Below, in pieces: positions 40,095-55,497 of a stretch of DNA of 64,000 nucleotides. The stretch comes from an uncultured Dorea sp. (GTDB taxonomy: Bacteria; Bacillota; Clostridia; Lachnospirales; Lachnospiraceae), in assembly GCA_900543415.1 (NCBI GenBank), contig UQRE01000003.1, positions 30,014-94,013 on the forward strand. The letters are read 5' to 3'. The translations under genes were made by a program, and so were the position numbers. Position 1 is the stretch's first letter. Each line of letters starts with the position of its first letter. The notes beneath the pieces are model-generated. The model had not been told where the DNA came from, searched no databases, and saw only the letters and a list, made by a program, of their open reading frames with translations.

Positions 40095-41237
40095 TTAGGA
40101 GTGAATGGCAACAATCAGTCTGAATACCTGTTCTACCGTTTCTATCAGATTCCTCTTGGCATTATCTCGATCCATTGCCTCTTCTAATGTGGTAATTCCT
40201 CTCAAGATCGGAAAGAACGCATGAATTCCCTCTTCGTTACATTTTCCGGCATCCTCCGTCACACTTCCGGCAAAGGCAAGCACCGGAATGTTATATTTTC
40301 CAGCCAGTTTTGCCACTCCTACCGGTGCTTTTCCCATCGCAGTCTGACCGTCAAGACGACCTTCTCCGGTAATGACAATATCTGCGTCTTGAATATACTG
40401 TTCTAATTTCGTTTCTTTTAAAACAATTTTAATTCCCGGCTCTAATACCGCATTGGTAAATGTAAGAAATGCAAAGCCAAGACCTCCTGCTGCCCCTGTT
40501 CCCGGATACTTAGGATCTGCTTTCTCATAATGCTTTTCTGCAAGCTTCGCATAGTCAGATAACCATTGATCCATCTTCCGGATCATTTCCGGTGTTGCTC
40601 CCTTTTGCGGTCCATACACAGCGCTTGCACCCTGTTGTCCGCATAAAGGATTTGTCACATCGCAGGCAACTTTAAACTCACACTGTGCAAGCTCCGATAT
40701 TACATTTCCGCTCTTAATTTCCGCAAGAGCTTCCAACCCTTTTGCTCCATAAGGAACCGCATTTCCTTTGCTGTCCAAAAAATCATATCCAAGCGCCTGC
40801 AGCATTCCGATTCCGCCGTCATTCGTTGCACTTCCGCCAATGCCGACCACAAACTTCCGACACCCCTTCTCAATGGCATCCCGGATCATCTCACCGACAC
40901 CGTAAGTTGTCGTAAACAGTGGATTTTTCTTCTCATCCGGAACCAGTGTGATTCCTGCTGCCGCTGACATTTCTATCACTGCCATTTTCTCTTCTTCTAT
41001 GATCCCATATGCAGCATCCACTTTTTCCCCAAGCGGTCCTGTAACACAAACCTTCCGCAAGCTGCCGTTCATCCCCTGCACAAGTGCGTCTACTGTTCCT
41101 TCTCCTCCGTCTGCCAAAGGTCTGACAACCACTTCCGCCTGCGCATCCGCACGACGGATTCCTTCTGCAATCGCATTGCCTGCCTCCACAGAACTTAAAC
41201 TTCCTTTTAATGAATCAATCGCAACTACTGCCTTCAT
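40095..41237 (-). CDS. Glycerate kinase (GarK/GlxK family)
   Basis: 380 aa with MKAVVAIDSLKGSLSS N-terminus and RPLADGGEGT typical of glycerate kinase. Confidence 0.85.
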   Translation of the reverse strand: MKAVVAIDSLKGSLSSVEAGNAIAEGIRRADAQAEVVVRPLADGGEGTVDALVQGMNGSLRKVCVTGPLGEKVDAAYGIIEEEKMAVIEMSAAAGITLVPDEKKNPLFTTTYGVGEMIRDAIEKGCRKFVVGIGGSATNDGGIGMLQALGYDFLDSKGNAVPYGAKGLEALAEIKSGNVISELAQCEFKVACDVTNPLCGQQGASAVYGPQKGATPEMIRKMDQWLSDYAKLAEKHYEKADPKYPGTGAAGGLGFAFLTFTNAVLEPGIKIVLKETKLEQYIQDADIVITGEGRLDGQTAMGKAPVGVAKLAGKYNIPVLAFAGSVTEDAGKCNEEGIHAFFPILRGITTLEEAMDRDNAKRNLIETVEQVFRLIVAIHS

Positions 41238-41275
41238 TCTTCTCTCCCTTCTTGAATCGTATATTCCTCATTGAC

Positions 41276-43432
41276 TTATGAAACAGAAATATGCTTACAG
41301 GCAAGGTGGCTGCCCTCAAGCACACCGAGTCCAATTGAGCCTTGTAAATATGGGTGGTCCACATCACAGGCAGATAATAACTCCTGTCCATCTACTTCTA
41401 CCGAAATTGTATCATGCTTTGCATGGATTGTAATCTTATATTCCTTCCCGTGGCGCCACATAAATTCTGTCGTCGCAAGAATCCTGTAATCATTCTCTTT
41501 TTTCAAGATTCCGATTTTGTTATCGGGAAGCAGCGCCGCAGCATAACAACGTCCGGCCCCCTGTACCCTTACATTCATCAGATGTTTCTCGCCCACGACC
41601 GGTATGACCACATATTCCACCTGATAGTCAGCCCAATTATATTTTCCTGTATAAACTTCTCCAAAGTCTCCACACGACAAATGAAGCATATTATTTTCCA
41701 GATAAAAGAGACCTTTTAATCTTGTAAACTGACTGATTTCCCGATGTACGATCGTCCAAAGCTCTTCTTTTTCTTTTTCCATACAAATTCCATAACATGG
41801 ATTTCCATCCACATATAAATCATCCATCAGGCATACAACTGTAGTCCCTTTCCCTCGGTTTCCTTTCACATGGATACAGATCCCGATTTCTTCAATAAGA
41901 CCGCCATCAAGTGCCGGAATCTGACAGGATAGTTGTTCCCACTCCCCTTTTGAGAGACTCCTCTTTTCTCCATGGTAAATATTCTGTGTATGCTGTTCTT
42001 TTGCATATGCGCTCACTAAAATATCATTACCATACTCCGGAAGCATGACACTTACATGCACCATCTGCCCCGGATATGCTACAGGAGAAAACGCCGGATC
42101 ATAACGACTGTCATGAAAATCTTCCGGTCCATAATAGGTCTTTTTATACACATACAGATTCTCTCCGCCCTGCATGACATTTGCGGTAACCTTTAAAGAC
42201 CTTATTCCACTCGCCGCCGATTCCGTCGTATTCTGTAGTGTATATTCCAAATCCTGATAAATATCGGAAGCGTGAAGATGCTCGGATCTAACGCGTATTG
42301 CATGCGTTGACCCCAGATATTCAAAGTGACAGCTGTCGATTCTCTCCTCAAAAATTGTCCGATATGGTTCCGGCAATTCCAACTGTTGAAGAGCCGCAGC
42401 CTGCTTTGCGATATAAGACGCCGCATAAGGAATATCCATAATATTCAACGAACCGACAACACTGGAGCATGCAAGAAAATCATGAATCGGACGACGCCAT
42501 TTCTCATAATCTATTGCATCAAGACCTCCTCGAACTCCCATAATAGTTCCAAGATTCCCCACATTACAGTCCGTGTCCCATCCACACCTGTTGCAAATAT
42601 TAAGTGTATCATCGAAATCCCCTTTTCCATATAAAAGCGCAAGGATCATTACTGCAATATTGGGAATGATATGGCACACTCCCTGATACTTGTCATATCC
42701 ATAATGTTCGAAAATATATCGGTAACAAGCTTCCCAGCCTCCATTTGTGCCATAGTTTTCAAAATAATTCATCACTGCCCGTACTACACGAGCATATTCA
42801 CAGTCTTCCGGAAGATAGCTTAATGCTTTCTCGATGATTTTAGAAATATCTTTCTCAACAAACGCATAGCTGATGCAGACTGCAACAAAAATTCCTCCGT
42901 ATATTCCATTTCTATCATGTGTAACACTTGCTGCTTTCTGCGCTAATTTTGCTGCCAGATCCGGGTTCCCGGGTGCCACAAGCCCCCAGGTATCGATAAA
43001 TATCTGACCTCCGATCTGCTCTGCAGCTACATGACCGTTCTGTTTGATGCTTCCACTTCTGGGAGCTTCGATTCCATTTCTCAGATTCAGGTAAGCGGTA
43101 TGTTCTGTAGAGACACCATATCCACCCCACCAGAAGAAGCCATGTTCAAACGGCGCATAATTTAGCAGTGCGTCTGCCACATCCTGCGCTTCGATTGCTT
43201 CCCCTTTGCTGCTGTCTTCTAATGCGCGTAGGAAAAACAGAGGACCATTGCTGTCATCGTCCGCTGCAGACTCTTTTCCTCTATAATCTATCGGATATCC
43301 ATCTAGTTCCCCATATATGTTTTTAATCTGCTCATAACTAAAACCTTCTACCGGTGCCCCCATACGAATTCCAATTATCTTTCCAAGCCACCCTGCATAG
43401 ATTTTCTCGATGTATTCTTCTTTTATCAACAT
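41276..43432 (-). CDS. ADP-ribosylglycohydrolase-fold domain fused to ~370-aa uncharacterised C-terminal domain
   Basis: 718 aa. The N-terminal roughly 350 aa match the DraG/ARH fold signature (AGWLGKIIG..., DDD, GWDTDCN). The C-terminal half has no motif I recognise. Confidence 0.7.
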   Translation of the reverse strand: MLIKEEYIEKIYAGWLGKIIGIRMGAPVEGFSYEQIKNIYGELDGYPIDYRGKESAADDDSNGPLFFLRALEDSSKGEAIEAQDVADALLNYAPFEHGFFWWGGYGVSTEHTAYLNLRNGIEAPRSGSIKQNGHVAAEQIGGQIFIDTWGLVAPGNPDLAAKLAQKAASVTHDRNGIYGGIFVAVCISYAFVEKDISKIIEKALSYLPEDCEYARVVRAVMNYFENYGTNGGWEACYRYIFEHYGYDKYQGVCHIIPNIAVMILALLYGKGDFDDTLNICNRCGWDTDCNVGNLGTIMGVRGGLDAIDYEKWRRPIHDFLACSSVVGSLNIMDIPYAASYIAKQAAALQQLELPEPYRTIFEERIDSCHFEYLGSTHAIRVRSEHLHASDIYQDLEYTLQNTTESAASGIRSLKVTANVMQGGENLYVYKKTYYGPEDFHDSRYDPAFSPVAYPGQMVHVSVMLPEYGNDILVSAYAKEQHTQNIYHGEKRSLSKGEWEQLSCQIPALDGGLIEEIGICIHVKGNRGKGTTVVCLMDDLYVDGNPCYGICMEKEKEELWTIVHREISQFTRLKGLFYLENNMLHLSCGDFGEVYTGKYNWADYQVEYVVIPVVGEKHLMNVRVQGAGRCYAAALLPDNKIGILKKENDYRILATTEFMWRHGKEYKITIHAKHDTISVEVDGQELLSACDVDHPYLQGSIGLGVLEGSHLACKHISVS

Positions 43433-43444
43433 ATAGAGTTCCTC

Positions 43445-44089
43445 CTACAAAGAAGTCAAATCCACCTGTGTTAATTCTTCTGTGCTTGATACTACAACAT
43501 TCGCAGCACCTAACAGTTCTTTATTCCCTACACCGATACACTTCATATTTCCCGCAATGGCAGCCTCAATTCCTGCCTGTGCATCTTCCACTACAATACA
43601 GTTTTCACACGGAACTCCAAGAAGTTCTGCCGCTTTTACAAATACTTGCGGGTTTGGTTTCGGTATCTCAACCAGATTTCCATCTACCACTGCATCAAAC
43701 TGATCGATCAGGTTCATCTTCTCAAGAATCATACCACCGCTTTTACTTGCAGATCCAAGAGCGATCAAATATCCCTCACTCTTAATCTTCTGCAAAAATT
43801 CCGGAATCCCCGGAAGGATCTCAGACTCATCAATCTTGGAGATCATATCCAGATAATATCCATTCTTTCGTGTTGCAAGTTCAAGCTTCTCTTCTTCTGA
43901 CAGGTTCTGAATCCCTCCTACCTCTAACACAATATTAAGGGAATCCATACGGCTTACCCCTTTCAGCTTCTCATTGTGAACGATATCGAATTCAAAGCCA
44001 AGCTCAGACGCCAGCTTTTTCCATGCCAGATAATGGTACTTCGCAGTATTCACTACTACTCCGTCCAGATCAAATATTACTGCTTTCAT
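43445..44089 (-). CDS. pgmB: Beta-phosphoglucomutase (HAD superfamily)
   Basis: Motif I DLDGVV, and HAD motifs SASKS and EDAQAGI. RBS GGAG supports a start at MKAVIF (44089). The ORF opens at 44125. Confidence 0.85.
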   Translation of the reverse strand: MKAVIFDLDGVVVNTAKYHYLAWKKLASELGFEFDIVHNEKLKGVSRMDSLNIVLEVGGIQNLSEEEKLELATRKNGYYLDMISKIDESEILPGIPEFLQKIKSEGYLIALGSASKSGGMILEKMNLIDQFDAVVDGNLVEIPKPNPQVFVKAAELLGVPCENCIVVEDAQAGIEAAIAGNMKCIGVGNKELLGAANVVVSSTEELTQVDLTSL

Positions 44090-44124
44090 ATGTCTTATTT
44101 CTCCTTTTTCCTCGTAAATGCACA

Positions 44125-46419
44125 CTATGCCAGTGAAAGATCCAAATGTTCTTCCAGCATATATTCTCTGTTACCAGCTTTTACCTTAATCATTCGTCCT
44201 TCCTGTTTGTCGCAGGTCAATGCGATTTTCTCCCTGCCGACTGTGAAATGAACCTTTACACCTTCTATGTACATATAGAATTCCATTGTCTTCCACTGTT
44301 TCGGAAGATTCGGTGTCAGATACAGAACACCCTTTTCATAATGAACACCTGAAAATCCAAAGATCAGACAATTCCAGATTCCTCCAAGAGAGGCTGAATG
44401 AACGCCATCGGTACTATCATGTGGATTTTCATTAATGTCTACGACAAGACATTTACGGAAGAATTCCCATGCCAGATCCATTGCTCCTATAGCGGCGCAT
44501 GCTTGTGCGTGTGCACAGTAGCTTAAGGAAGAATCATGTATCGTTCTATTTTCATAGAAAAGTACATTCTTTCTGACAGTCTCTTCATCAAAAAGTTTTG
44601 GGAACAGGTTTAGAAGCATCACCACATCCGCCTGCTTCAGAACCTGCATATTGACCACTTCTTCTCTGGAATAATCAAGAAGCACAGACTGTTTGATCTG
44701 AGATTCTTTATATTTCTCAATGTTTTCCAGACATGGCTTTGACAAGAAGCTGTCATCCTGCGGAATAATTCCCTCTTTATTTGGTACCGGAAGGTACATC
44801 TTCTCCTGAAACTCCTTCCATTTCTGTAACTCTTTTTCCAATTTGAGTTTCTGATTAAGACTTTTAAATACTTCTACGTTTTCTGCCTTTAATCTTTCCG
44901 CATAATTAAGCGCCATTTTCACACAATACACCGCCATGTAGTTGGTGTAAGCATTGTTATCTACATGCTCCGTATATTCATCCGGTCCGATCACATCATA
45001 GATTCCGTATTTTTGTCTCTTTTCATCCCATTTTGCACAGGATACCCAGAATCTCGCTGCTTCAAAGACAATCTCATAGCCACAATCTTCCATGAAGCTA
45101 TCATCCCCTGTAGATTCATAATATTGCTCTACTGCATATGCGATATCTGCTGTCACATGATATTCTTTAATACCGGACCAAACTTTGTTTGCCTTACCGG
45201 TATGTATGTTGAGTGCTGCATAAAGCGGAGTTTCCTCTTCACCTGTACGCGCTGCTTCCCAAGGGAACATTGCCCCTTCAAAGCCGTAGTCCTTTGCCTT
45301 CTTTCTTGCTCCGTCCAGTCCTCTGTACCGGAATTCCAGCAATCGCTTTGCTTCTTCCGGATACCCGTATAAGAGCATCGGGAACAGGAAGATCTCCGTA
45401 TCCCAGAACACATGACCTTTGTATCCCTCGCCGGTCAGTCCTTTCGCGGCAATGCTGCTCTCGTTGGTATGCCACGGTGTCATCCCCAAAATGTGATACT
45501 GTGCAAAGCATACCGCTGCTTCTTCCGCCTCACTCATACCGTCTACATGAATACGTGTCACATCCCAGAACTCTTTCATTTTCATCTGCTGCTCTGCCCA
45601 AAGAACGTCATATCCTTTCTTTAACGCAGCCGTCAGCATCTGCTTTCTCTCTTCTGTCGTAATTCCATTCTCGCCTTGATCTGCAAGGGTCACCTTCTCG
45701 AAAATGACTTCTTTGTCTTCCGGAACGATCACATAAGTTCCATACACGCTTCTTCGCTTAAGATTGAATTCCTTCTCTTCCTGCACGCCCCGAACCACTT
45801 TACACCCGGTCGCTTCGGTCACCGTACCGTTCTCAAGCTCACTTCGGATTTCCATGACTTCTTTCTCATAGACTCTGGCAGTCGAAGTGTGAAAATGCGA
45901 CACACCACTATTTGTGATCTGCCCGTTAATTCCGGTTTTTACTTTCACTTGTCCGCTTTTATCACCTAAAAACTGTACACGAAGTGTCTGCGCAAAAAGA
46001 CCGGACTGTACCATAGATGCAAATCTCCGGTTCTCAACCAGAACTTCACCCTTTTCACCGAGCGCAAACACATAGCGGATCACTAACTCTCCGCTGAAAA
46101 TATCTAATTTTCTCTCGAAGGATTTCAGGCAGGAACGCTCCGGATAAATCTTCTCACCATCAATCTCCAATCCAAACCATGTGACATCCGGACAGTTGAC
46201 AAGCTCCGTAACTTCTCCTTCATATGCCTTATTAAATGCTCCGCTTAAGAACATTCCTCTCTGTTCTTCAATGAGTGAAAATGGATGAGCCGCGCGCACT
46301 CCCATATATCCGTTGCACTGTGCAAACACGGATTCTGTTTTTAACTCGTACTCCGGTAAAAATTCATTTTCACCAATCCAAAATCTTTTCTTTTCTCTTT
46401 CTGTCTGATAATGAATCAT
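44125..46419 (-). CDS. GH65 glycoside phosphorylase (kojibiose/nigerose/trehalose/glucosylglycerol phosphorylase family)
   Basis: 764 aa with GH65 N-terminal beta-sandwich, (alpha/alpha)6 barrel and the catalytic-acid region GHVFWDTEIF. Confidence 0.9.
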   Translation of the reverse strand: MIHYQTEREKKRFWIGENEFLPEYELKTESVFAQCNGYMGVRAAHPFSLIEEQRGMFLSGAFNKAYEGEVTELVNCPDVTWFGLEIDGEKIYPERSCLKSFERKLDIFSGELVIRYVFALGEKGEVLVENRRFASMVQSGLFAQTLRVQFLGDKSGQVKVKTGINGQITNSGVSHFHTSTARVYEKEVMEIRSELENGTVTEATGCKVVRGVQEEKEFNLKRRSVYGTYVIVPEDKEVIFEKVTLADQGENGITTEERKQMLTAALKKGYDVLWAEQQMKMKEFWDVTRIHVDGMSEAEEAAVCFAQYHILGMTPWHTNESSIAAKGLTGEGYKGHVFWDTEIFLFPMLLYGYPEEAKRLLEFRYRGLDGARKKAKDYGFEGAMFPWEAARTGEEETPLYAALNIHTGKANKVWSGIKEYHVTADIAYAVEQYYESTGDDSFMEDCGYEIVFEAARFWVSCAKWDEKRQKYGIYDVIGPDEYTEHVDNNAYTNYMAVYCVKMALNYAERLKAENVEVFKSLNQKLKLEKELQKWKEFQEKMYLPVPNKEGIIPQDDSFLSKPCLENIEKYKESQIKQSVLLDYSREEVVNMQVLKQADVVMLLNLFPKLFDEETVRKNVLFYENRTIHDSSLSYCAHAQACAAIGAMDLAWEFFRKCLVVDINENPHDSTDGVHSASLGGIWNCLIFGFSGVHYEKGVLYLTPNLPKQWKTMEFYMYIEGVKVHFTVGREKIALTCDKQEGRMIKVKAGNREYMLEEHLDLSLA

Positions 46420-46439: not shown

Positions 46440-47480
46440 CTAATTAAAAACCACGGGTCTGCCGGTCTTCGCAGATTCATACAGTGCACAGATCAGCTTC
46501 TGAATGTAAGCCCCCTGCTTTGCTGTTACAAGCAGTTCTTCTTCTCCAAGACACGCTTTCACGAAATTAGTATCTACATCTAAATGCCAGTCTCTCATCT
46601 CAAGGAATGGGAAGGTATGGTCTACGAGCTGACCGTCTTCCTCCCCGTAGATCTCTAACGGGAACAGATCAGCGCCTTCTTTGGAGCCATAGAACTTCAC
46701 ACTTCTTACATCTCTTTCTTTTCGGTTGATTGCAAAGGATGTCTGAAGGTCAAGACTTGTTCCGTCAGCAAAACGGATATATCCAAAGATTCCGTCTTCC
46801 ACCGTAAAACGTTCCGGGTCCCAACCGCCCATAAGACCAACCTTTGAAGTCTTTCCGATGCGGTCGCTGCTTGTCGCACAGACATAGGAGATTTCCGGAT
46901 AATCAAGAAGGTATAATGCGCTGTCTAACATATGTGCGCCAATGTCAATCAACGGTCCGCCGCCCTGAATTTCCTTATTTGTAAAGCAGCCCCATCCCGG
47001 GATTCCTCTTCTTCTGTGCCATTTCACTTCTGTATGGTATATCTCTCCCATTTTGCCGACTTTGATTCTGTTTTTCAAAAATGCCACATGCTCACTTGCC
47101 CTGAAGTGAAAGCCATAAGAGAGAAGTTTCTCTTTTTCCTGCGCTTTCTTCTCCATGCTTTCGGCTTCTTCTACTGTAATTGCCGGCGGCTTTTCGCAGA
47201 ATACATGACATCCTGCTTCCAAAGCATCTAATGTAATCTGGCAATGAAATTTATTCGGAACACAGATTGTTACTGCATCTGGTTTTACCTCTTCTAACAT
47301 TTCTTTATGAGAATCGTAATATTTTTCAATTCCAAACTTTTCAGCTACTGTCTTAGCAGCTTCCAGACGCGTGTCACAGATTCCCACAATCTCCACATTC
47401 CCCATAAGCTGATAATTCGGGATATGTGTTACCTGAGCAATCTGTCCGGAACCGATGATCGCCATTCTTAATTTTTCCAT
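46440..47480 (-). CDS. Gfo/Idh/MocA-family NAD(P)-dependent oxidoreductase
   Basis: Rossmann motif MAIIGSGQIAQ. The RBS GAGGAAACAAA supports a start at MEKLRMA (47480). The ORF opens at 47549. Confidence 0.85.
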   Translation of the reverse strand: MEKLRMAIIGSGQIAQVTHIPNYQLMGNVEIVGICDTRLEAAKTVAEKFGIEKYYDSHKEMLEEVKPDAVTICVPNKFHCQITLDALEAGCHVFCEKPPAITVEEAESMEKKAQEKEKLLSYGFHFRASEHVAFLKNRIKVGKMGEIYHTEVKWHRRRGIPGWGCFTNKEIQGGGPLIDIGAHMLDSALYLLDYPEISYVCATSSDRIGKTSKVGLMGGWDPERFTVEDGIFGYIRFADGTSLDLQTSFAINRKERDVRSVKFYGSKEGADLFPLEIYGEEDGQLVDHTFPFLEMRDWHLDVDTNFVKACLGEEELLVTAKQGAYIQKLICALYESAKTGRPVVFN

Positions 47481-47602: not shown

Positions 47603-48394
47603 CTACATAAATTGTTTCATGAAATCCACAGACTCCTGATATGCCTTCAAAGGATCTTCGCCGCGAATTCTTCCTTCATTTACAACCGGACCTTCATAGC
47701 CGATTTCTTTTAATGTCTCCATATGGCGTTTCCAGTCAATTGAACCGGTTCCCGGCTGATAACGGTGATTTTCAGCAATATGGATATGTCCTACATAGTC
47801 TTTATATTTTTTCAGTGTTTCAGAAATATCGTCTTCTTCAATTGCCATGTGGTAGAAATCAGAAGTTAATTTCACTCTCTTAAATCCACCCTGACGAATA
47901 ATATTTACCGCATCTTCCTGCGTATTAAGCATATGATCCTGATAACGGTTCAGTGGTTCAAGATAGAGATAAGTACCTGTCTCTTCGGCAGTTTTCTCAA
48001 GTTCTGTCAAAGAATCGATAATCGCCTTTACATCTCCCTCATGACTTCTGGGAGAAACCATTGGCGGAAGTCTGAATGTAAACATTCCCCATGCAGCAGG
48101 AACTACAACTCCTGTGCCGCCAACTTCTTTCAATGCGCGGAGAATCTCTTTTAAATCCTCAATTCCATTTAAGCGTTTCTCTTCGATAAAGTCACCGATC
48201 CATCCACGATATCCGCCGCAGGCTGTACATACCGGAAGACCTGTCTCCTTGATTGCTTTCTTCACTTCTTCAAGATTTTCAACTAATACTTTTCCATCAA
48301 TCTCAAAACATTCAAATCCCATTTCTTTCATGAAGCGGAATTTTTCGACCATATCTTTAGGGAAAAAATCTTTATCCTGTGTTCCTAATAACAT
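47603..48394 (-). CDS. Sugar phosphate isomerase/epimerase (xylose-isomerase-like TIM barrel)
   Basis: 263 aa with the LEPLNRYQ and HIAENHR metal-binding motifs of the AP_endonuc_2 TIM-barrel family. Confidence 0.8.
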   Translation of the reverse strand: MLLGTQDKDFFPKDMVEKFRFMKEMGFECFEIDGKVLVENLEEVKKAIKETGLPVCTACGGYRGWIGDFIEEKRLNGIEDLKEILRALKEVGGTGVVVPAAWGMFTFRLPPMVSPRSHEGDVKAIIDSLTELEKTAEETGTYLYLEPLNRYQDHMLNTQEDAVNIIRQGGFKRVKLTSDFYHMAIEEDDISETLKKYKDYVGHIHIAENHRYQPGTGSIDWKRHMETLKEIGYEGPVVNEGRIRGEDPLKAYQESVDFMKQFM

Positions 48395-48406: not shown

Positions 48407-49462
48407 CTATGAAAAATCTACGCCCATCTTAATGCTGCTTTCCGGATGCCGATCTACATATTTACAGAATCCTTCTGCACACTCTTCAAACGGAACGACC
48501 GGATCAATAATATCTTCACAGTTCAAGTATCCGTTCATCAAAAGTTCCCAACAAACATCTTCAATTCTCTTTCTGTTCCAACGTGGATATTCTGGATTCG
48601 GCTCACTGCATGCTCTGGAGAAAATAATTTTTCCATAGTTGAAGTGCGCTTCCTGTCCAAGCCATAATCCTTCCGGGAACGGTTTTGCAAATGCAACGTA
48701 TGCGATAGTTCCGTTGTATGCAAGTCCTTTTAATGCGGACTGAAGTGCATGTACGTTACCGCTTGTCTCAATGATCACATCAGCGCCCTGCTTCTCTGTC
48801 AGGCGTTTGATCTCAAGTCCTGCATCGCAAGCTGTAGAATCTAACGTATAATGAGCGCCTGTCTTTGTCGCAATCTCACGTCTCTTAGCGATCGGGTCGA
48901 TTCCGATAACAGTTGTTGCGCCAATCTTTACTGCAAGCTGAAGTGCGATCAATCCGATTGCGCCAAGACCGATAACAACTACACGGTCTCCAGGTCTTAC
49001 GTCTGCGTCGCGAATTCCGCTTAATGCAAATTGTGCCGGATCATAACAAACTGCATTTTTAGCAGATGCATCTTTGCTCATTTTACGAAGTTTATAATTG
49101 TCCACTGCATTTACAATCTGTGTTTCTTTGATCGGTCCATAAGAACATACACGATCTCCGACCTCATATTCAGTAACATCGCTTCCTTTTCCTGTAATTG
49201 TTCCCACGAACATATTACCTAATGGAAGATCTCCAAATTCGATTCCTCTTGGCTCATTCTCATCTCTTTTTGCAAATACACGCCACTCCTCATCAAACTT
49301 ACCGTCAATGAAAGGAGTTGTGCCTCTGAAATCTGCAAGCTCAGTTCCATGCTTTGGCGCTGCAAATTCCACTTTCACTTTTACCTCGTTGCTCTTAATC
49401 TCTCTGTCTTCATACTCCTTAAGCTCTGCAGTTCTTGGAGCTGTTGCTACTAATTTCTTCAT
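48407..49462 (-). CDS. MDR-family (zinc-binding alcohol/polyol dehydrogenase-like) oxidoreductase
   Basis: 351 aa with GroES-like fold and the Rossmann motif VIGLGAIGL. The overall architecture matches the sorbitol/threonine dehydrogenase family. Confidence 0.8.
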   Translation of the reverse strand: MKKLVATAPRTAELKEYEDREIKSNEVKVKVEFAAPKHGTELADFRGTTPFIDGKFDEEWRVFAKRDENEPRGIEFGDLPLGNMFVGTITGKGSDVTEYEVGDRVCSYGPIKETQIVNAVDNYKLRKMSKDASAKNAVCYDPAQFALSGIRDADVRPGDRVVVIGLGAIGLIALQLAVKIGATTVIGIDPIAKRREIATKTGAHYTLDSTACDAGLEIKRLTEKQGADVIIETSGNVHALQSALKGLAYNGTIAYVAFAKPFPEGLWLGQEAHFNYGKIIFSRACSEPNPEYPRWNRKRIEDVCWELLMNGYLNCEDIIDPVVPFEECAEGFCKYVDRHPESSIKMGVDFS

Positions 49463-49485
49463 AAAGATCCTCTCCCTTTTTTATC

Positions 49486-50334
49486 TTAACCTTTTACACC
49501 GCCGTCAGTGCTTCCGCTTCTGATCAAATGCTGGCTGAAGCCATACATAATAACAATCGGCAGTGATGTTACCAGTGATGCTGCCATCATACGTCCCCAG
49601 ATGTAATCCGGTGTATTGAACAAGGAGTTCAAACCGATCGGAATTGTCATAAGATCTGGTGAATCAATGAAAATAGATGCAAACAATACATCATTCCATG
49701 CGATCATGAAGGCATATACAAATACCGATATAATTCCGGACATGGAAAGTGGAACTACAATACGGAAAATAATTCCCATCTTGCTGAGTCCGTCTACTCT
49801 TCCGGCCTCTTCAAGCTCTGCCGGAATGGTATCAAAATAACTTCTTGTCATATAAATTGCTGTCGGCAAAGTCTGCACGATCATACAGATGATAACCGCT
49901 TCACGGCTGTTGCTAAGTCCAACTGCTGACAACATTTTGAACAATGGAACGATCAACAGGATTCCTGAGAACATATAAACTAAGAAAAACATTTCGCTGA
50001 TCGCGCTTTTCCCTTTGAATTTCAGTCTTGATAATGCGTATCCACCTAAAATACCTAAGATCACTGCGATTACAGATGTTGTAAGCGCGATATACAAGCT
50101 GTTCTTCATATATTTTACAAACGGGAAAATATTTTCATTAAATATATCAATAAAGTGCTGGATCTCCCAATCTCTTGGTATGATCGTTGGTGGATATCCA
50201 ATTGTTTCTGCTGTCGCCTTGAAGGAAATACTGAGCATGATTATAAATGGGAATAATAAGATCAGCACTATCAGGATGACACGTGCATAAAACCATATCT
50301 CTTTACCGACTTTTTTATGATTAGTCTTCTTCAA
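49486..50334 (-). CDS. Carbohydrate ABC transporter permease
   Basis: 282 aa, 6 TM, with an EAA-like loop. Confidence 0.85.
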   Translation of the reverse strand: MKKTNHKKVGKEIWFYARVILIVLILLFPFIIMLSISFKATAETIGYPPTIIPRDWEIQHFIDIFNENIFPFVKYMKNSLYIALTTSVIAVILGILGGYALSRLKFKGKSAISEMFFLVYMFSGILLIVPLFKMLSAVGLSNSREAVIICMIVQTLPTAIYMTRSYFDTIPAELEEAGRVDGLSKMGIIFRIVVPLSMSGIISVFVYAFMIAWNDVLFASIFIDSPDLMTIPIGLNSLFNTPDYIWGRMMAASLVTSLPIVIMYGFSQHLIRSGSTDGGVKG

Positions 50335-51208
50335 CTCTCAGCACCTTCTTTCTAATTAACATAATCAGGGCGAATATAAACACAAACAATACAATGGAGA
50401 TTGCTGCTGCTTTTCCAAAATCATGTGTTGCAAACGCCATATCGTAAAGGTATACACCTAATACATCCACCTGTTTTGTCAACAGATATACTTCTGTATA
50501 AATGTAGAATACCCAGATTGTTCTAAGGCTTACTACGGTTACAAGCGTAGGCTTGATCGCCGGATATGTGATGGCTTTGAATTTCTGCCATGAGGTTGCT
50601 CCGTCAATGTCTGCTGCCTCATAGAGACTGTTGTCCATAGACTGCAGAATCGCATTGAAGGAAATATATGCATATGGGAAAAATTTCCAAATTGCAAAAA
50701 TCGATACTAATATAAAGGCACTGACCGGTTGGTCGAACCAGAGAGGCGCTTTATCAACAATCCCAAATACATCAACTACAAAATAATTTACAATTCCATA
50801 AATATTATTAAACATGTACCGCCATGTGAAGATCAGGCAGACTGCCGGAACCACATAGGAAAGAATGATGATTGAATTTACTAATTTCTTTCCGAAGAAT
50901 GGACGATTTAAAAATACGGACAATGCCAGTCCTAAAACGGTACTGATTGACGTTACTACTACAGTAAATAAAAGTGTGATTGCTACGGATTTATAAAAAG
51001 ACGGGTCCGTAAATACATCAATAAAGTTTTGTAATCCTACAAATTCTGAAGGCAGATTCGGATTCAGCGGAACATCCTGACAACTGATCACTATGTTATA
51101 AATAAGCGGGTAGCCGATCAGCAGCACCAATAGGATAATACTTGGTGACAGGAGTGCATATGCAAATTTTGTATCACTTCCTCCAAGCTTCTTTTTCTTT
51201 ACACTCAT
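50321..51208 (-). CDS. Carbohydrate ABC transporter permease
   Basis: 295 aa, 6 TM, MalF/UgpA-like. It overlaps the downstream permease by 14 nt. Confidence 0.85.
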   Translation of the reverse strand: MSVKKKKLGGSDTKFAYALLSPSIILLVLLIGYPLIYNIVISCQDVPLNPNLPSEFVGLQNFIDVFTDPSFYKSVAITLLFTVVVTSISTVLGLALSVFLNRPFFGKKLVNSIIILSYVVPAVCLIFTWRYMFNNIYGIVNYFVVDVFGIVDKAPLWFDQPVSAFILVSIFAIWKFFPYAYISFNAILQSMDNSLYEAADIDGATSWQKFKAITYPAIKPTLVTVVSLRTIWVFYIYTEVYLLTKQVDVLGVYLYDMAFATHDFGKAAAISIVLFVFIFALIMLIRKKVLRVEED

Positions 51209-52619: not shown

Positions 52620-54314
52620 TTACAAGCGTGATTCCTTTACCCATGCACACTCCCATGCATTTAAGGTAAGTTCTCCTTCCACATTTTTACCTGTCAGAAG
52701 GTCGCATCCATTTAATTCTTCATAAGCGATATGCTGTTCTTTTCCTGATACATTGATCAATACATGGATACGTTCTTTTGTTGTTTTGTTTTCTCTGATA
52801 AAGCTGATCACCTGTTCATTGAGCTTCAGCACTTTCTGACCGGCCTGCGGTGAAAACGCACTTTCTTCGCGTCGGATGTTCAGTCTTCCTACCAAAGCAT
52901 CGAAAATCTCTTTTCGATTGGTGCCTTCCGTCAATTGATTTTCCAATGTCTGATACTCCAGCTTTTCTCTGTTGATTCTTCGCGGAATCCCGGAAACCGT
53001 TTTTCCATAATAGTCATTTCTGGAACCAAGCAGGCTGTGAATATAGATTCCCGGCACCCCTTGCAGTGAGAACAATAATGTTTCTGCCGCAACAAATTTA
53101 CTGATTCTTTCTCTGTCTGAACATTCCGGACCTGCAAGCGCATCCTGATAGTTAATATTTAACTCATACGGACTCTTCGTTCCGTCCCCGTTATCTTTAT
53201 AAGAAACAACGCCACCGTGTTTTAATGTCGCCTCCAACAAGACATTTCTCTCTTCTTCTGTAAGTATCCCTTCTGTTGGTCTCACTCCGATTCCATCGTG
53301 GGAACTTAAGAAGTTAAAGTATGTAACCTTATCATTTGGAAGCTCCAGTGTTTCTATCCAGTTTAAAAGAATTTTCGCATTTTCGGAAAGGAACGTATAC
53401 ATCGTAAGCGGCGGAAGAGGGAACTGATATACAAGATCTGCCTCGTCTCCATTTTCTCCGAAATAACTGATGTTGTCCTTGTGCGGAACATTCGTCTCCG
53501 TAATAATTCTTGTTCCCGGAGCGTATACTTTTAACACATCTTTCATTAATTTGATAAGCTCATGTGTCTCCGGAAGATGCATACATGTTGTTCCTAATTC
53601 TTTCCACATGAATCCAATCGCATCCAGACGGATGAATTTAGCGCCGCTTCTTCCATACATAACAAGGATATCCAGAATCTCTGCCAACAACTCCGGGCAC
53701 TCAAAGTTCAGATCGATCTGATCGTCACTAAAGGTTGTCCACACATACTTTTCTCCGTCTTTTGTCTCAAATCTTGTCAACAGAGGAAGCGCTCTTGGAC
53801 GTGTAACCGTACTGTAATCAGCATCTTTATCACAGGTGATAAAATAATTCTTATAAGGCTCTTCGCCTTTCAAATATCCTTCAAACCATTCGCTGCTTTT
53901 TGAAATGTGGTTGATCACCGCATCAAACATTAACCCGTAATCAGAAGACATCTCTTTAATCTGTTCCCAGTCTCCAAGCTCCGGGTTGATCTTTCTATAA
54001 TCTACAACAGAAAATCCATCGTCCGATGTATACGGATACATTGGAAGAAGGTGAACTGTCTCAATCGCCTCACCCACATATTTATTCAGAAATTGATGCA
54101 AAACCTCCAGTCCCGGTTTCTCGCCATCTGTGATCGTATCCCCGTATGTAATCAGGATACTGTCTTTCTCTGAAAGCGGTGTCTCTAAAGCTTCTGTCGT
54201 TTCGTATCCGTTAAGTCGCTCATCGATCAGCTTTGTCGCAGCTTCTGCTTTCTCTTCGCTTTTGTATACACGAACAATCCTCTCTTTTATTTGTTTCTTC
54301 AAACTGTCTTTCAT
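52620..54314 (-). CDS. GH13_18 sucrose-phosphorylase-family glucoside phosphorylase
   Basis: 564 aa with the GH13 catalytic regions (FIRLDAIGFMW nucleophile region, ITETNVPH). Length and fold are typical of sucrose, glucosylglycerate or glucosylglycerol phosphorylases. Confidence 0.85.
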   Translation of the reverse strand: MKDSLKKQIKERIVRVYKSEEKAEAATKLIDERLNGYETTEALETPLSEKDSILITYGDTITDGEKPGLEVLHQFLNKYVGEAIETVHLLPMYPYTSDDGFSVVDYRKINPELGDWEQIKEMSSDYGLMFDAVINHISKSSEWFEGYLKGEEPYKNYFITCDKDADYSTVTRPRALPLLTRFETKDGEKYVWTTFSDDQIDLNFECPELLAEILDILVMYGRSGAKFIRLDAIGFMWKELGTTCMHLPETHELIKLMKDVLKVYAPGTRIITETNVPHKDNISYFGENGDEADLVYQFPLPPLTMYTFLSENAKILLNWIETLELPNDKVTYFNFLSSHDGIGVRPTEGILTEEERNVLLEATLKHGGVVSYKDNGDGTKSPYELNINYQDALAGPECSDRERISKFVAAETLLFSLQGVPGIYIHSLLGSRNDYYGKTVSGIPRRINREKLEYQTLENQLTEGTNRKEIFDALVGRLNIRREESAFSPQAGQKVLKLNEQVISFIRENKTTKERIHVLINVSGKEQHIAYEELNGCDLLTGKNVEGELTLNAWECAWVKESRL

Positions 54315-54373: not shown

Positions 54374-54441
54374 TGACAACGTTGTCTTATTGTTTTTTTC
54401 GTGACAACCCTATCCTGTCTCTCGACTTGACAACGTTGTCA
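54374..54441. promoter_or_regulatory. Two LacI-family operator palindromes upstream of the GH13_18 operon
   Basis: Perfect 14-bp palindrome TGACAACGTTGTCA at 54428-54441 and a 13-of-14 copy at 54374-54387. A half-site tgacaac lies at 54403. Confidence 0.5.
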
Positions 54442-54498
54442 CGTTTTGCCCTATTTAACGCTCTCCGCATTCGTGGAGAGCGCATCTTTTTCATCTAA

Positions 54499-55497
54499 CT
54501 ATGTAGATTCTCTCTCTATCACTTTGCATGGGAATTTAAAACTTTTATTTTCATCTTCACCATTACTTATTCGATCGATCACATAATCAATACAACATTT
54601 TGCAAGCTTTTCAAAGTCTTGTTCCACCGTAGAGATCGGCGGATAATAATATTCTCCTAATGTAATATTATCAATGCCGAGTACGGCAATATCCTTCGGG
54701 ATCGCTAATCCCTTCTCGTAGATTGCCCGGTATACTCCAAGCGCTCTTTCATCACCTGAGACGAAAAAGGCATTGACTTCGTGCGTATCCAAGACTTCTT
54801 TTGCTTTATTATAAGCCTTCTTCACCGTATCGAGCCCTGTAAATATGTGGTAATCTGTTTTCTGCTCTTTCATCGCAGCTTCGAATCCCTTTACACGGTT
54901 CTGGGTAGATAAAAATTTCTTCTCTCCTATAAACAGAGCAATCTTATTGAGATTCTTTTCCGCTAAATATCGTCCGCCCTGGTAGCCCACATCATAGTTA
55001 TCCAAGCTGACCGATGGAACATCCGGATTCTCCGGTTCTCCAAACACGACATACGGAATGTCGTGACTCTCAAAATAATCCACTCGAGGATCCTGTAAAA
55101 TATTCTCGAGTAATATTGCGCCATCTGCAATTCCACTGGCGATCAGATAGAAGCCATCTGTCTCGTCTTCTTCAAAGCGTTCACTACTTGATGGCGAAAG
55201 GACAATTTTCATAGAACGCTTCTTTGCATATGTGAATAAATGCTTTAACATAATTGTATGCCAAATACTCAAATGCTCTTCATGGTGACGCTCGGCAAAT
55301 ACTACGATAATATTCGTCCGACTTCCTTTTAAGCCACGGGCAAGCATATTCACCTGATATCCCTGCTCCTTAATTGTATTCATGACTTTTTCTCTCATTC
55401 CGGCACTGACATTCGGGCTGTTGTTCAACACTCTGGATACCGACTTGATCGATACTCCGCAGGCATTGGCTATATCAACAATTGTCACATTTCCCAC
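54499..55497 (-). CDS. LacI-family transcriptional regulator
   Basis: 332 aa with an N-terminal HTH (VTIVDIANACGVSIKSVSRVLN) and a periplasmic-binding-protein-like sugar-binding domain. Confidence 0.9.
   Translation of the reverse strand: MGNVTIVDIANACGVSIKSVSRVLNNSPNVSAGMREKVMNTIKEQGYQVNMLARGLKGSRTNIIVVFAERHHEEHLSIWHTIMLKHLFTYAKKRSMKIVLSPSSSERFEEDETDGFYLIASGIADGAILLENILQDPRVDYFESHDIPYVVFGEPENPDVPSVSLDNYDVGYQGGRYLAEKNLNKIALFIGEKKFLSTQNRVKGFEAAMKEQKTDYHIFTGLDTVKKAYNKAKEVLDTHEVNAFFVSGDERALGVYRAIYEKGLAIPKDIAVLGIDNITLGEYYYPPISTVEQDFEKLAKCCIDYVIDRISNGEDENKSFKFPCKVIEREST

What the first reader, a model, noticed from the sequence alone, without database searches (positions are those of the whole stretch)
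40095..55497. LacI-controlled glycoside locus combining a retaining GH13_18 phosphorylase, an inverting GH65 phosphorylase, both phosphoglucomutases, glycerate kinase and a three-enzyme oxidoreductase/TIM-barrel module
Fourteen co-oriented genes form the locus. The GH13_18 enzyme would release alpha-G1P and the GH65 enzyme beta-G1P, and pgcA and pgmB respectively feed these into glycolysis. The adjacent glycerate kinase suggests that an aglycone or product is glycerate, as in glucosylglycerate, or possibly glucosylglycerol or a mannosylglycerate analogue. GH13_18 is known to contain glucosylglycerate and glucosylglycerol phosphorylases. The Gfo/Idh/MocA oxidoreductase, xylose-isomerase-like TIM barrel and MDR dehydrogenase resemble modules that oxidise or isomerise sugars and aglycones, such as 3-keto-glycoside or hydroxypyruvate-isomerase-type chemistry. 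I do not recall this combination from any characterised pathway. It could be a complete route for a compatible-solute-type glycoside in a gut anaerobe.
Basis: partly seen in the sequence, partly recalled or inferred. Interest (0 to 1): 0.7.

Follow-up and report, generated by a model that had tools for sequence, protein, structure and literature searches.

The report
Gut-bacterium copy of the E. coli ycj operon
This gene cluster is not an unknown pathway: it is a gut Lachnospiraceae version of the partly characterised E. coli ycj sugar operon (glucosylglycerate and kojibiose phosphorylases plus a guloside-to-glucoside converting trio), extended by a glycerate kinase and one unexplained extra hydrolase-like gene.

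Summary
The genes are real, co-oriented and tightly packed, but the stated interval holds 12 genes, not 14. The pgcA-like mutase lies outside it (38363-40054), and a 718-aa ADP-ribosylglycohydrolase (ARH)-family gene (41276-43432) was missed.

The core, LacI + GH13_18 + SBP + two permeases + MDR dehydrogenase + TIM barrel + Gfo/Idh/MocA + GH65 + beta-PGM, is collinear with E. coli K-12 ycjW/ycjMNOPQRSTU. It matches gene for gene at 29-68% full-length identity.
- YcjM: glucosylglycerate phosphorylase
- YcjT: kojibiose phosphorylase
- YcjU: beta-PGM
- YcjQRS: guloside-to-glucoside conversion

The published specificity signatures are present: TETN and the loop-A Glu in the GH13, and EEAPWS in the GH65. 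A conserved palindromic operator pair lies in front of the GH13 gene.

The claim of an undescribed pathway is not supported.

What is new is accessory. A glycerate kinase is appended, as in some relatives. A three-domain ARH-fold protein, normally found in ribokinase-linked operons, is inserted between beta-PGM and glxK in this lineage. Its role, like the natural substrate of ycj operons in general, is unknown.

The parts
54499..55497 (-). LacI-family repressor (YcjW counterpart)
   Evidence: Pfam LacI + Peripla_BP_3. 29% identity over 319 aa to E. coli YcjW. An 11/12 sigma-70-like promoter lies at 55557-55529.
54428..54441 (.). Operator-like perfect palindrome TGACAACGTTGTCA, site 1
   Evidence: Exact match in the 184-bp LacI-GH13 spacer. 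The same 14-mer occupies the same spacer in related Lachnospiraceae loci L087, L088, L037 and L029.
54374..54387 (.). Operator-like palindrome, site 2 (1 mismatch)
   Evidence: It lies 54 bp downstream of site 1 and about 60 bp upstream of the GH13 start codon.
52620..54314 (-). GH13_18 retaining phosphorylase, predicted 2-O-alpha-glucosylglycerate phosphorylase (YcjM orthologue)
   Evidence: 43% identity over 561 aa to YcjM, 488 bits, against at most 160 bits to any solved sucrose, sucrose-6F-P or glucosylglycerol phosphorylase. T272-E273-T274-N275 and loop-A E384 are shared with YcjM. These are the signatures given in PMC7178133.
51267..52568 (-). Lipoprotein solute-binding protein (YcjN orthologue)
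   Evidence: 45% identity to YcjN. PDB hits include 8VQK YcjN at E=6e-116. The N-terminus ends in the lipobox-like ...MVAGC.
50321..51208 (-). ABC permease (YcjO orthologue)
   Evidence: 57% identity to YcjO. Pfam BPD_transp_1.
49486..50334 (-). ABC permease (YcjP orthologue)
   Evidence: 59% identity to YcjP. Pfam BPD_transp_1.
48407..49462 (-). MDR Zn-dehydrogenase (YcjQ orthologue, D-guloside 3-dehydrogenase type)
   Evidence: 68% identity over 350 aa to YcjQ. The product name comes from the K-12 RefSeq annotation.
47603..48394 (-). Xylose-isomerase-like TIM barrel (YcjR orthologue, 3-keto-glycoside C4 epimerase)
   Evidence: 61% identity to YcjR. The best solved structure is 6WN6, '3-keto-D-glucoside 4-epimerase', at E=7e-109; the next family scores 5e-25.
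46440..47480 (-). Gfo/Idh/MocA oxidoreductase (YcjS orthologue, D-glucoside 3-dehydrogenase type)
   Evidence: 46% identity over 340 aa to YcjS. Public gene calls give 346 aa; the ORF extends to 47549.
44125..46419 (-). GH65 inverting phosphorylase, kojibiose-phosphorylase type (YcjT orthologue)
   Evidence: 39% identity over 715 aa to YcjT. The best PDB hit is C. saccharolyticus kojibiose phosphorylase 3WIQ, E=2e-116. The residues at CsKP positions 64/392/394/402/416/585 read E-E-A-P-W-S, which is the KP motif EEAPxx of PMC8537180.
43445..44089 (-). beta-phosphoglucomutase (YcjU orthologue)
   Evidence: TIGR01990 bPGM equivalog, 236 bits against a cutoff of 189. 37% identity to YcjU. Called as 214 aa in public assemblies.
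41276..43432 (-). Three-domain ARH-fold protein (ADP-ribosylglycohydrolase family plus two beta-sandwich domains); function unknown; lineage-specific insertion
   Evidence: Pfam PF03747, 195 bits, residues 14-308. AF2 model with pLDDT 88. The N-terminal domain matches MJ1187, ARH3 and DraG at TMt 0.69-0.76, and the C-terminal parts match CBM22/CBM66-like sandwiches. It starts 12 bp after beta-PGM and ends 38 bp before glxK.
40095..41237 (-). Glycerate kinase (GlxK/GarK family)
   Evidence: Pfam Gly_kinase, 503 bits. TIGR00045, 476 bits against a cutoff of 168. Relatives also have it directly after beta-PGM (L088) or after the ARH gene (L002-L005).
   Evidence: Four PGM_PMM Pfam domains. No NCBIfam equivalog is reached. 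It starts 40 bp after glxK. It is absent from this position in L002-L005.
38260..38302 (-). Terminator-like hairpin after the mutase gene
   Evidence: 18-bp stem, dG -25.3 kcal/mol, followed by TTTGTT.

Best explanation
The locus is the Lachnospiraceae orthologue of the E. coli ycjW/ycjMNOPQRSTU operon. It is a LacI-repressed system for taking up and phosphorolytically breaking down alpha-1,2-linked glucosides.

Proposed working:
1. A lipoprotein binding protein and two permeases import the glycoside. The ATPase is supplied from elsewhere in the genome.
2. The GH65 kojibiose-type phosphorylase removes a non-reducing alpha-1,2-glucose as beta-glucose-1-phosphate. The beta-PGM converts this to glucose-6-phosphate.
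3. The GH13_18 enzyme cleaves 2-O-alpha-glucosylglycerate to alpha-glucose-1-phosphate and D-glycerate.
4. Glycerate kinase feeds the glycerate into lower glycolysis. The adjacent PgcA-like mutase converts the alpha-glucose-1-phosphate.
5. The YcjQ/R/S-type trio (NAD-dependent 3-oxidation, C4 epimerisation of the 3-keto sugar, re-reduction) converts guloside-type sugars into glucosides that the phosphorylases can use.
6. The ARH-fold protein is an added hydrolase of unknown specificity. It was recruited from ribokinase-linked (ribose-scavenging-like) operons and probably trims an extra substituent from the imported compound.

Shown here: orthology, gene order, specificity motifs, the conserved operator and operon compactness.
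Inferred: all enzyme activities (by transfer from E. coli and other characterised homologues), the order of the steps, and the role of the ARH protein.
Unknown: the natural substrate, as it is for E. coli.
For: - Gene-for-gene collinearity and full-length similarity to K-12 ycjM-U. Identities are M 43, N 45, O 57, P 59, Q 68, R 61, S 46, T 39, U 37 and W 29%.
- The K-12 RefSeq product names record the characterised activities.
- The GGaP signatures TETN and loop-A Glu are present.
- The KP motif EEAPWS is present. It is identical to that of the experimentally confirmed H. orenii kojibiose phosphorylase.
- The beta-PGM and glycerate kinase score above their curated cutoffs.
- The TIM barrel's best solved relative is YcjR itself, by a margin of more than 80 orders of magnitude in E-value. 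The SBP matches the YcjN structure.
- Two copies of TGACAACGTTGTCA lie in the LacI-GH13 spacer and are conserved in the same spacer in four other Lachnospiraceae loci.
- Gaps from GH13 to the mutase are at most 122 bp, and a strong hairpin follows only the mutase.
- Relatives show a graded series: core only (L087), core + glxK (L088), and core + ARH + glxK (window, L002-L005).
Against: - No activity, expression or growth data exist for this organism.
- Even in E. coli the physiological substrate is unknown. E. coli does not grow on kojibiose, and no YcjN ligand was found.
- ycjV (the ATPase) and ompG are absent.
- The operator sequence is not found in the E. coli locus, and the repressor is only 29% identical to YcjW. 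Regulation is therefore analogous rather than demonstrably conserved.
- The third residue of the WET motif is Ser, not Thr.
- The mutase has no equivalog-level assignment, and its adjacency is specific to this species.
Confidence: 0.85

Rival explanations
1. The locus is a previously undescribed pathway for a compatible-solute-type glycoside, and the oxidoreductase/TIM module acts on the aglycone or through 3-keto-glycoside or hydroxypyruvate-isomerase-type chemistry.
For: - A GGaP-type GH13 and a glycerate kinase are present.
- The TIM barrel has weak sub-threshold similarity to hydroxypyruvate isomerase models (89 bits against a cutoff of 353).
- The natural substrate of ycj-type operons is still unknown.
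Against: - The whole combination is the E. coli ycj operon, in the same order.
- The TIM barrel is 61% identical to YcjR, a 3-keto-glycoside C4 epimerase, with PDB 6WN6 as its best hit.
- The MDR and Gfo proteins are 68% and 46% identical to YcjQ and YcjS.
Confidence: 0.05
2. The Gfo/Idh/MocA enzyme, the TIM barrel and the DUF1080-like C-terminus of the ARH protein form an oxidative 'alternative glycosidase' route: 3-oxidation, beta-elimination by a TIM-barrel lyase, then hydration. This would resemble the Bacteroides BT2156-2160 or Agrobacterium 3-keto-glycoside systems, cleaving glycosides without a classical hydrolase.
For: - The Gfo protein hits the BT_2158 and BT_2159 glycoside/disaccharide 3-dehydrogenase models, far below their cutoffs (62 against 750 bits and 38 against 650 bits).
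- Some homologues of the ARH protein give marginal PF06439 '3-keto-disaccharide hydrolase' matches in their last ~170 residues (25-29 bits against a cutoff of 26.8).
Against: - The window protein itself gives no PF06439 match even at E<=1.
- The C-terminal domain matches non-catalytic CBM66/CBM22-type sandwiches in structure.
- The TIM barrel is a close orthologue of the epimerase YcjR, not of a lyase.
- The ARH gene is missing from most ycj-type operons (L087, L088, E. coli), so it cannot be an obligate partner of the trio.
Confidence: 0.05
3. The ARH gene, and the mutase, are functionally unrelated passengers that happen to sit in or next to the operon. The functional unit is only LacI + ycjM-U + glxK.
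For: - In 48 of the 80 ARH-family loci (79 of which held a recognisable ARH gene) the gene lies next to ribokinase-type kinase genes, typically within an ABC-transporter operon with no ycj genes.
- The mutase is not adjacent in L002-L005.
- Complete ycj-type operons exist without either gene.
Against: - The ARH gene starts 12 bp after beta-PGM and ends 38 bp before glxK, so it is inside the transcript.
- The same insertion is kept in four further genomes whose ARH proteins have diverged to 73-76% identity.
- ARH genes also lie next to ycj-type genes in two other arrangements (L037, L029/L024).
Confidence: 0.3

Closest known systems
E. coli K-12 ycjMNOPQRSTUV-ompG operon with repressor YcjW
   Same: - It has the same nine genes in the same order: GGaP, SBP, two permeases, MDR dehydrogenase, TIM epimerase, Gfo dehydrogenase, GH65 kojibiose phosphorylase and beta-PGM. 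Full-length identity is 37-68%.
- A LacI-family repressor is adjacent.
- The binding protein is a lipoprotein.
   Different: - There is no ycjV ATPase and no OmpG porin. This is a Gram-positive organism.
- The repressor lies upstream and co-oriented, rather than downstream and divergent, and is only 29% identical.
- The operator sequence differs.
- Three extra genes lie downstream: the ARH-fold protein, the glycerate kinase and a phosphohexomutase.
GH13_18 glucosylglycerate phosphorylase gene neighbourhoods (Franceus, Pinel and Desmet 2017, as summarised in PMC7178133)
   Same: A GGaP gene accompanied by a glycerate kinase gene. The TETN motif and loop-A Glu are present.
   Different: No glucosyl-3-phosphoglycerate synthase or phosphatase genes were seen in the locus. 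The organism therefore looks like a consumer of glucosylglycerate, not a producer.
GH65 kojibiose phosphorylases (C. saccharolyticus CsKP 3WIQ; H. orenii HoGP)
   Same: The EEAPWS specificity motif is present, W-E is kept at 391/392, and the protein is paired with a beta-PGM.
   Different: Thr417 of the WET motif is Ser. Identity to the characterised E. coli enzyme YcjT is only 39%. The acceptor range has not been tested.
ARH family hydrolases (ARH3, DraG, MJ1187) and ribose-utilisation loci that contain ADP-ribosylglycohydrolases (Bacteroidetes rus systems, bioRxiv 10.1101/574913)
   Same: - The N-terminal domain has the ARH fold (TMt 0.69-0.76).
- The family-invariant acidic residues E28, D57-D59 and D285/D287 lie where the family binds its two metal ions (the placement rests on my own knowledge of the family).
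- Most homologues lie next to ribokinase genes, as ADP-RGH genes do in rus loci.
   Different: - At 718 aa it is about twice the usual length, with two added beta-sandwich domains.
- Sequence similarity to any solved ARH is very low (E=1e-5).
- Here it sits in a glucoside-phosphorylase operon with no ribokinase anywhere in the window.
- There is no evidence that it acts on ADP-ribose.

Membership tests
ycj operon (E. coli ycjM-U type) | Collinear gene order: GGaP, SBP, permease, permease, MDR dehydrogenase, TIM epimerase, Gfo dehydrogenase, GH65, beta-PGM | tested here: met
   The BLASTP best hits run in exactly this order, each covering essentially the full length.
ycj operon (E. coli ycjM-U type) | Each protein is closer to its Ycj counterpart than to other characterised members of its superfamily | tested here: met
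   - TIM barrel: YcjR 6WN6 at 7e-109 against 5e-25 for the next family.
- GH13: 488 bits to YcjM against at most 160 bits to solved GH13_18 enzymes.
- SBP: matches the YcjN structure.
- MDR and Gfo proteins: 68% and 46% identity to YcjQ and YcjS, while every NCBIfam equivalog is far below its cutoff.
- A full reciprocal search against an E. coli proteome was not run.
ycj operon (E. coli ycjM-U type) | Dedicated ATPase (ycjV) and outer-membrane porin (ompG) in the cluster | tested here: not met
   No counterpart to either was found among the locus proteins or in the domain scans of the locus. This is expected for a Gram-positive organism that shares a transporter ATPase (own knowledge). I treat these two genes as accessory.
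ycj operon (E. coli ycjM-U type) | LacI-family repressor acting on operators in front of the first gene | tested here: inconclusive
   A LacI gene is adjacent, and a conserved palindrome pair lies in the spacer. Binding was not tested. The motif is not shared with the E. coli locus.
GH13_18 glucosylglycerate phosphorylase (EC 2.4.1.352) | [quoted passage not shown] | tested here: met
   T272-E273-T274-N275, identical in YcjM. The criterion comes from PMC7178133.
GH13_18 glucosylglycerate phosphorylase (EC 2.4.1.352) | Conserved Glu in loop A, where other clades have Gln | tested here: met
   E384 in SPYELN, aligned with the E of SPYEIN in YcjM. Assigning this segment to loop A rests on my own knowledge of the B. 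adolescentis enzyme.
GH13_18 glucosylglycerate phosphorylase (EC 2.4.1.352) | Phosphorolysis of 2-O-alpha-glucosylglycerate and no activity on sucrose | not testable with these tools
   Needs an enzyme assay.
GH65 kojibiose phosphorylase (EC 2.4.1.230) | EEAPxx at CsKP positions 64/392/394/402/416/585 | tested here: met
   Read off the phmmer alignment to 3WIQ as E, E, A, P, W, S. The criterion comes from PMC8537180.
GH65 kojibiose phosphorylase (EC 2.4.1.230) | W391-E392-T417 (+1 subsite 'WET' motif) | tested here: inconclusive
   W and E are conserved, but position 417 is Ser. This is a conservative change whose effect is unknown.
GH65 kojibiose phosphorylase (EC 2.4.1.230) | A phosphorylase rather than a hydrolase (phosphate-binding residues; partner beta-PGM) | tested here: met
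   - The GPDE and HxSSLS segments are conserved with CsKP. Their roles are from my own knowledge.
- The kojibiose-hydrolase model scores 249 bits against a cutoff of 800.
- A beta-PGM gene follows 35 bp downstream.
beta-phosphoglucomutase | Score above the TIGR01990 equivalog cutoff | tested here: met
   236 bits against a cutoff of 189.4.
Glycerate kinase (GlxK/GarK, PF02595) | Full-length match above the family cutoff; product 2-PG or 3-PG | tested here: inconclusive
   Family membership is met (TIGR00045, 476 bits against 168). The 2-kinase model (381 against 686) and the 3-kinase model (370 against 625) are both below cutoff, so regiospecificity is unresolved.
ADP-ribosylglycohydrolase (ARH) family, PF03747 | ARH fold with the acidic metal-binding residues | tested here: met
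   - Pfam: 195 bits against a cutoff of 26.
- Foldseek: TMt 0.69-0.76 to MJ1187, ARH3 and DraG.
- E28, D57-D59 and D285/D287 are invariant across 40 homologues.
ADP-ribosylglycohydrolase (ARH) family, PF03747 | Hydrolysis of an ADP-ribosyl (or other ribosyl) linkage | not testable with these tools
   The only support is context: most homologues neighbour a true ribokinase (TIGR02152, 358 bits against a cutoff of 300).
3-keto-disaccharide hydrolase / DUF1080 (PF06439) | Pfam match above the gathering score in the C-terminal domain | tested here: not met
   The window protein gives no PF06439 match at E<=1. Three homologues score 25-29 bits against a cutoff of 26.8.

The most novel reading that the evidence does not exclude
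The 718-aa ARH-fold protein inserted between beta-PGM and glycerate kinase could be a new kind of cytoplasmic glycoside hydrolase that acts on the true, still unidentified, natural substrate of ycj-type operons. One example would be removal of a ribosyl or other substituent from a decorated glucosylglycerate or kojibioside. If so, its specificity would reveal what this long-orphan E. coli and gut-bacterial pathway actually consumes.
Probability: 0.15. Interest if true: 0.65.

Novelty: new variant of a known kind. Interest (0 to 1): 0.3.

Why it matters
The ycj operon of E. coli has enzyme activities defined in vitro, but no known natural substrate or growth phenotype. This locus shows that the same nine-gene module, with its own conserved operator, is kept in abundant gut Lachnospiraceae. 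The exact GH13 protein is indexed in 134 blocks of the public assembly collection.

In some lineages the module has gained a glycerate kinase and an ARH-fold enzyme. This supports glucosylglycerate-type compounds as real substrates. It also offers a second, Gram-positive, system and one extra enzyme as handles for finding the natural substrate. Beyond that the locus is an ordinary orthologue of a known operon.

Tried and rejected
- I tried to read the primary Raushel papers (PMC5953851, PMC6613369, PMC7509853) and Franceus 2017 (PMC5601347). None is held. Their results are therefore cited through the K-12 RefSeq product names and secondary papers.\n- I searched for the Lachnospiraceae operator in the E. 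coli locus and found no match at 3 mismatches or fewer.\n- I tried to name the organism by exact protein look-up. The clusters carry no names. The closest named genomes are at 73-76% ARH-protein identity: Petralouisia muris, Lachnospiraceae bacterium LCP25S3_G4 and mouse-gut MAGs.\n- Three literature searches for a characterised ARH-fold enzyme linked to ycj, DUF1080 or glycoside hydrolases found nothing specific. The exception was the Bacteroidetes rus loci.\n- The mutase could not be assigned to a specific equivalog or a close solved structure.\n- I looked in the window for a ribokinase, a second ARH or the ARH-associated binding protein. There were no tblastn hits.\n- An NJ tree of ARH proteins places the ycj-linked copies in three separate positions. 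The tree has no support values, so I do not use it to claim independent recruitment.\n- I considered an inositol-catabolism (IolG/IolE/IolM-like) reading of the trio and rejected it. All such NCBIfam scores are far below their cutoffs, and orthology to YcjQRS is much stronger.

Full report
**Observation**

The minus strand between 38.3 and 55.5 kb carries an unbroken run of co-oriented genes. Domain scans identify them in transcription order:
- a LacI-family regulator (54499-55497)
- a GH13 alpha-amylase-family protein of 564 aa (52620-54314)
- a solute-binding protein (51267-52568)
- two ABC permeases (50321-51208, 49486-50334)
- an MDR zinc-type dehydrogenase (48407-49462)
- a xylose-isomerase-like TIM barrel (47603-48394)
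- a Gfo/Idh/MocA oxidoreductase (46440-47549)
- a GH65 protein (44125-46419)
- a beta-phosphoglucomutase (43445-44125)
- a 718-aa protein with an ADP-ribosylglycohydrolase (ARH) domain (41276-43432)
- a glycerate kinase (40095-41237)
- a four-domain phosphohexomutase (38363-40054)

Public gene calls for the identical locus give shorter starts for the Gfo protein (346 aa, start 47480) and the beta-PGM (214 aa, start 44089).

**What it is**

The gene order is that of the E. coli K-12 ycj cluster. I fetched NC_000913 1366000-1386000 and compared all proteins pairwise. Each window protein from the GH13 to the beta-PGM has its best hit in the ycj gene at the same ordinal position, over essentially the full length:

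| Window protein | E. coli counterpart | Identity |
|---|---|---|
| GH13 | YcjM | 43% |
| SBP | YcjN | 45% |
| permease 1 | YcjO | 57% |
| permease 2 | YcjP | 59% |
| MDR dehydrogenase | YcjQ | 68% |
| TIM barrel | YcjR | 61% |
| Gfo/Idh/MocA | YcjS | 46% |
| GH65 | YcjT | 39% |
| beta-PGM | YcjU | 37% |
| LacI | YcjW | 29% |

RefSeq names the E. coli products as follows:
- YcjM: glucosylglycerate phosphorylase
- YcjQ: D-guloside 3-dehydrogenase
- YcjR: 3-dehydro-D-guloside 4-epimerase
- YcjS: D-glucoside 3-dehydrogenase
- YcjT: kojibiose phosphorylase
- YcjU: beta-phosphoglucomutase
- YcjW: repressor

These names reflect the in-vitro work of the Raushel and Desmet groups, as summarised in PMC11543891, PMC7178133, PMC6599011 and PMC13053599. 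PMC11543891 also reports that the YcjN cluster with the full ycj neighbourhood includes Firmicutes.

**Specificity tests**

- GH13 protein. It carries T272-E273-T274-N275 and E384 in the SPYE(L/I)N segment, both shared with YcjM. The GH13_18 review gives the (T/S)ETN motif and the loop-A Glu as the two sequence marks of glucosylglycerate phosphorylases. Its similarity to solved sucrose, sucrose-6F-phosphate and glucosylglycerol phosphorylases is much lower: at most 160 bits against 488 bits to YcjM.
- GH65 protein. I read the six specificity-determining positions of De Beul et al. (CsKP numbering 64, 392, 394, 402, 416, 585) from the alignment to 3WIQ. They spell E-E-A-P-W-S. This is the kojibiose-phosphorylase motif EEAPxx, and it is identical to the motif of the experimentally confirmed H. 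orenii enzyme. W391 and E392 of the WET motif are kept, and T417 is Ser.
- TIM barrel. Its best solved relative is YcjR itself (6WN6, E=7e-109; the next family scores 5e-25).
- Binding protein. It matches the YcjN crystal structure and has a lipoprotein-type N-terminus ending in VAGC. E. coli YcjN is also a lipoprotein.
- Beta-PGM and glycerate kinase. Both exceed their curated NCBIfam cutoffs.

**Regulation and transcript structure**

The 184-bp spacer between the LacI gene and the GH13 gene holds the perfect palindrome TGACAACGTTGTCA (54428-54441) and a one-mismatch copy (54374-54387). The same 14-mer, with 0-1 mismatches, occupies the same spacer in every other Lachnospiraceae ycj-type locus I could inspect: L087, L088, L037 and L029. 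It is absent from the E. coli locus. This is phylogenetic-footprint support for LacI control, although binding was not tested.

From the GH13 gene to the mutase the gaps run from -14 to 122 bp. The ARH gene starts 12 bp after the beta-PGM stop. An 18-bp-stem hairpin (dG -25.3 kcal/mol) followed by TTTGTT lies just after the mutase (38260-38302). A long hairpin at 55672-55713 closes the upstream V-ATPase operon. The likely transcription units are therefore LacI alone, and GH13 through the mutase.

**Accessory genes and comparative genomics**

I took 80 genome loci anchored on the ARH protein and contexts anchored on GH65 homologues. Related Lachnospiraceae show a graded series:
- L087 (a Blautia-related assembly): LacI + ycjM-U only
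- L088: the same, plus a glycerate kinase directly after beta-PGM
- the window species (L084-L086) and L002-L005 (Petralouisia muris, Lachnospiraceae bacterium LCP25S3_G4, mouse-gut MAGs): the ARH gene inserted between beta-PGM and glxK

The mutase follows glxK only in the window species. Two further loci carry decayed operons next to an ARH gene. L029 has an in-frame GH13/beta-PGM fusion with the ARH gene upstream of LacI. L037 has an SBP/Gfo fusion with the ARH gene after beta-PGM.

The conserved functional core is therefore the ycj module. glxK is a recurrent add-on, in line with the glycerate-kinase association noted for GGaP genes. The ARH gene is a lineage-specific add-on. The mutase is at best a species-specific one.

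**The ARH-fold protein**

An AlphaFold2 model from a 40-sequence alignment (mean pLDDT 88, pTM 0.91) shows three parts. An N-terminal all-helical domain matches MJ1187, ARH3 and DraG (TMt 0.69-0.76). Two beta-sandwich domains follow, and their matches are carbohydrate-binding modules such as CBM22 and CBM66. E28, D57-D58-D59 and D285/D287 are invariant across the family. By my knowledge of ARH3 and DraG these are the positions of the binuclear metal ligands, so the domain is probably catalytically competent. There is no signal peptide.

Some homologues give marginal PF06439 (3-keto-disaccharide hydrolase/DUF1080) matches in the last domain, but the window protein does not.

Of the 80 loci, 79 held a recognisable ARH gene. 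In 48 of them it neighbours ribokinase-type kinase genes, typically in an operon with these members:
- a LacI-ribokinase fusion
- a true ribokinase (TIGR02152, 358 bits against a cutoff of 300)
- a binding protein and two permeases
- a second PfkB kinase
- a 334-aa ARH protein

This resembles the ribose-scavenging logic described for Bacteroidetes rus loci, which also contain ADP-ribosylglycohydrolases. No ribokinase or second ARH occurs in the window. Why this enzyme was recruited into a glucoside-phosphorylase operon is unexplained.

**Mechanism**

Shown here: orthology, order, motifs, the operator and operon compactness.

Inferred by transfer from characterised homologues:
1. The lipoprotein SBP and two permeases import the glycoside. 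The ATPase is encoded elsewhere, as is usual for this transporter class in Firmicutes (own knowledge).
2. The GH65 enzyme phosphorolyses alpha-1,2-glucosidic bonds, giving beta-Glc1P. The beta-PGM then gives Glc6P.
3. The GH13_18 enzyme phosphorolyses 2-O-alpha-glucosylglycerate, giving alpha-Glc1P and D-glycerate.
4. Glycerate kinase gives phosphoglycerate. The mutase converts alpha-Glc1P to Glc6P.
5. The YcjQ/R/S trio converts guloside-type sugars to glucosides through 3-keto intermediates.

One speculative way to unify the two phosphorylases is sequential action on an alpha-1,2-glucosylated glucosylglycerate. YcjT is reported to glucosylate the glucosyl unit of sucrose at O-2 (paper title seen), so it tolerates alpha-glucoside acceptors. 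This idea is untested.

The natural substrate is unknown even for E. coli. Kojibiose releases YcjW from DNA in vitro but does not support growth, and no YcjN ligand was found.

**Rivals**

- A truly novel pathway is refuted.
- An oxidative 3-keto-glycoside cleavage route is unlikely. The TIM barrel is a YcjR orthologue, the BT_2158/2159 models score far below their cutoffs, and the DUF1080 signal is absent in this protein.
- The ARH gene and the mutase may be passengers. This remains possible (about 0.3). It is weakened for the ARH gene by its intra-operon position and by its retention in four further genomes that have diverged to 73-76% ARH-protein identity.

**Novelty and verdict**

The locus is an orthologue of a known operon in a new host. 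It lacks ycjV and ompG, and it gains a glycerate kinase, an ARH-fold three-domain protein and an adjacent mutase. I file it as a new variant of a known kind.

Interest is modest. The main value lies in comparative clues to the orphan substrate of ycj operons and in the uncharacterised ARH-fold enzyme family.

Noticed in passing
L082:3579-14197 (Anaerocolumna xylanovorans); also 48 of the 80 ARH-family loci L002-L081: The 718-aa ARH-fold family usually sits in an uncharacterised operon. Its members are a LacI-ribokinase fusion regulator, a bona fide ribokinase, a binding protein, two permeases, ARH718, a second PfkB kinase and a 334-aa ARH protein. Some loci also carry a nucleoside-hydrolase-like gene. 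It looks like a Firmicutes counterpart of the ribose-scavenging loci of Bacteroidetes, and its substrate is unknown.
   Followed up: partly
L029:9392-11665 and L037:5436-7040: Two Lachnospiraceae MAGs carry decayed ycj-type operons. One has an in-frame GH13/beta-PGM fusion in which everything between the two genes is deleted. The other has a fusion of the binding-protein N-terminus to the Gfo C-terminus. These are either real gene loss or assembly artefacts.
   Followed up: partly
window 20150-20356 (-): A T-box leader (Rfam RF00230, 101 bits) lies upstream of the 489-aa ORF at 18598-20067. It is the only Rfam match in the window.
   Followed up: no
window 55672-64000 (-): A V-type ATPase operon (D, B, A and further subunits) lies immediately upstream and ends in an 18-bp-stem hairpin at 55672-55713. 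A V-ATPase operon also lies near the ycj-type operon in L088, there downstream of it.
   Followed up: no
window 46440-47549 and 43445-44125 (-): The longest ORFs overstate two genes. Public gene calls on identical DNA start the Gfo/Idh/MocA gene at 47480 (346 aa) and the beta-PGM gene at 44089 (214 aa). This leaves a 122-bp gap between the TIM-barrel and Gfo genes, the largest inside the operon.
   Followed up: partly
window 36791-38209 (-): A class II aminoacyl-tRNA synthetase (AsnS/AspS/LysS type) follows the locus after a terminator-like hairpin and has its own promoter-like site (38248-38221). It marks the 3' boundary of the locus.
   Followed up: no
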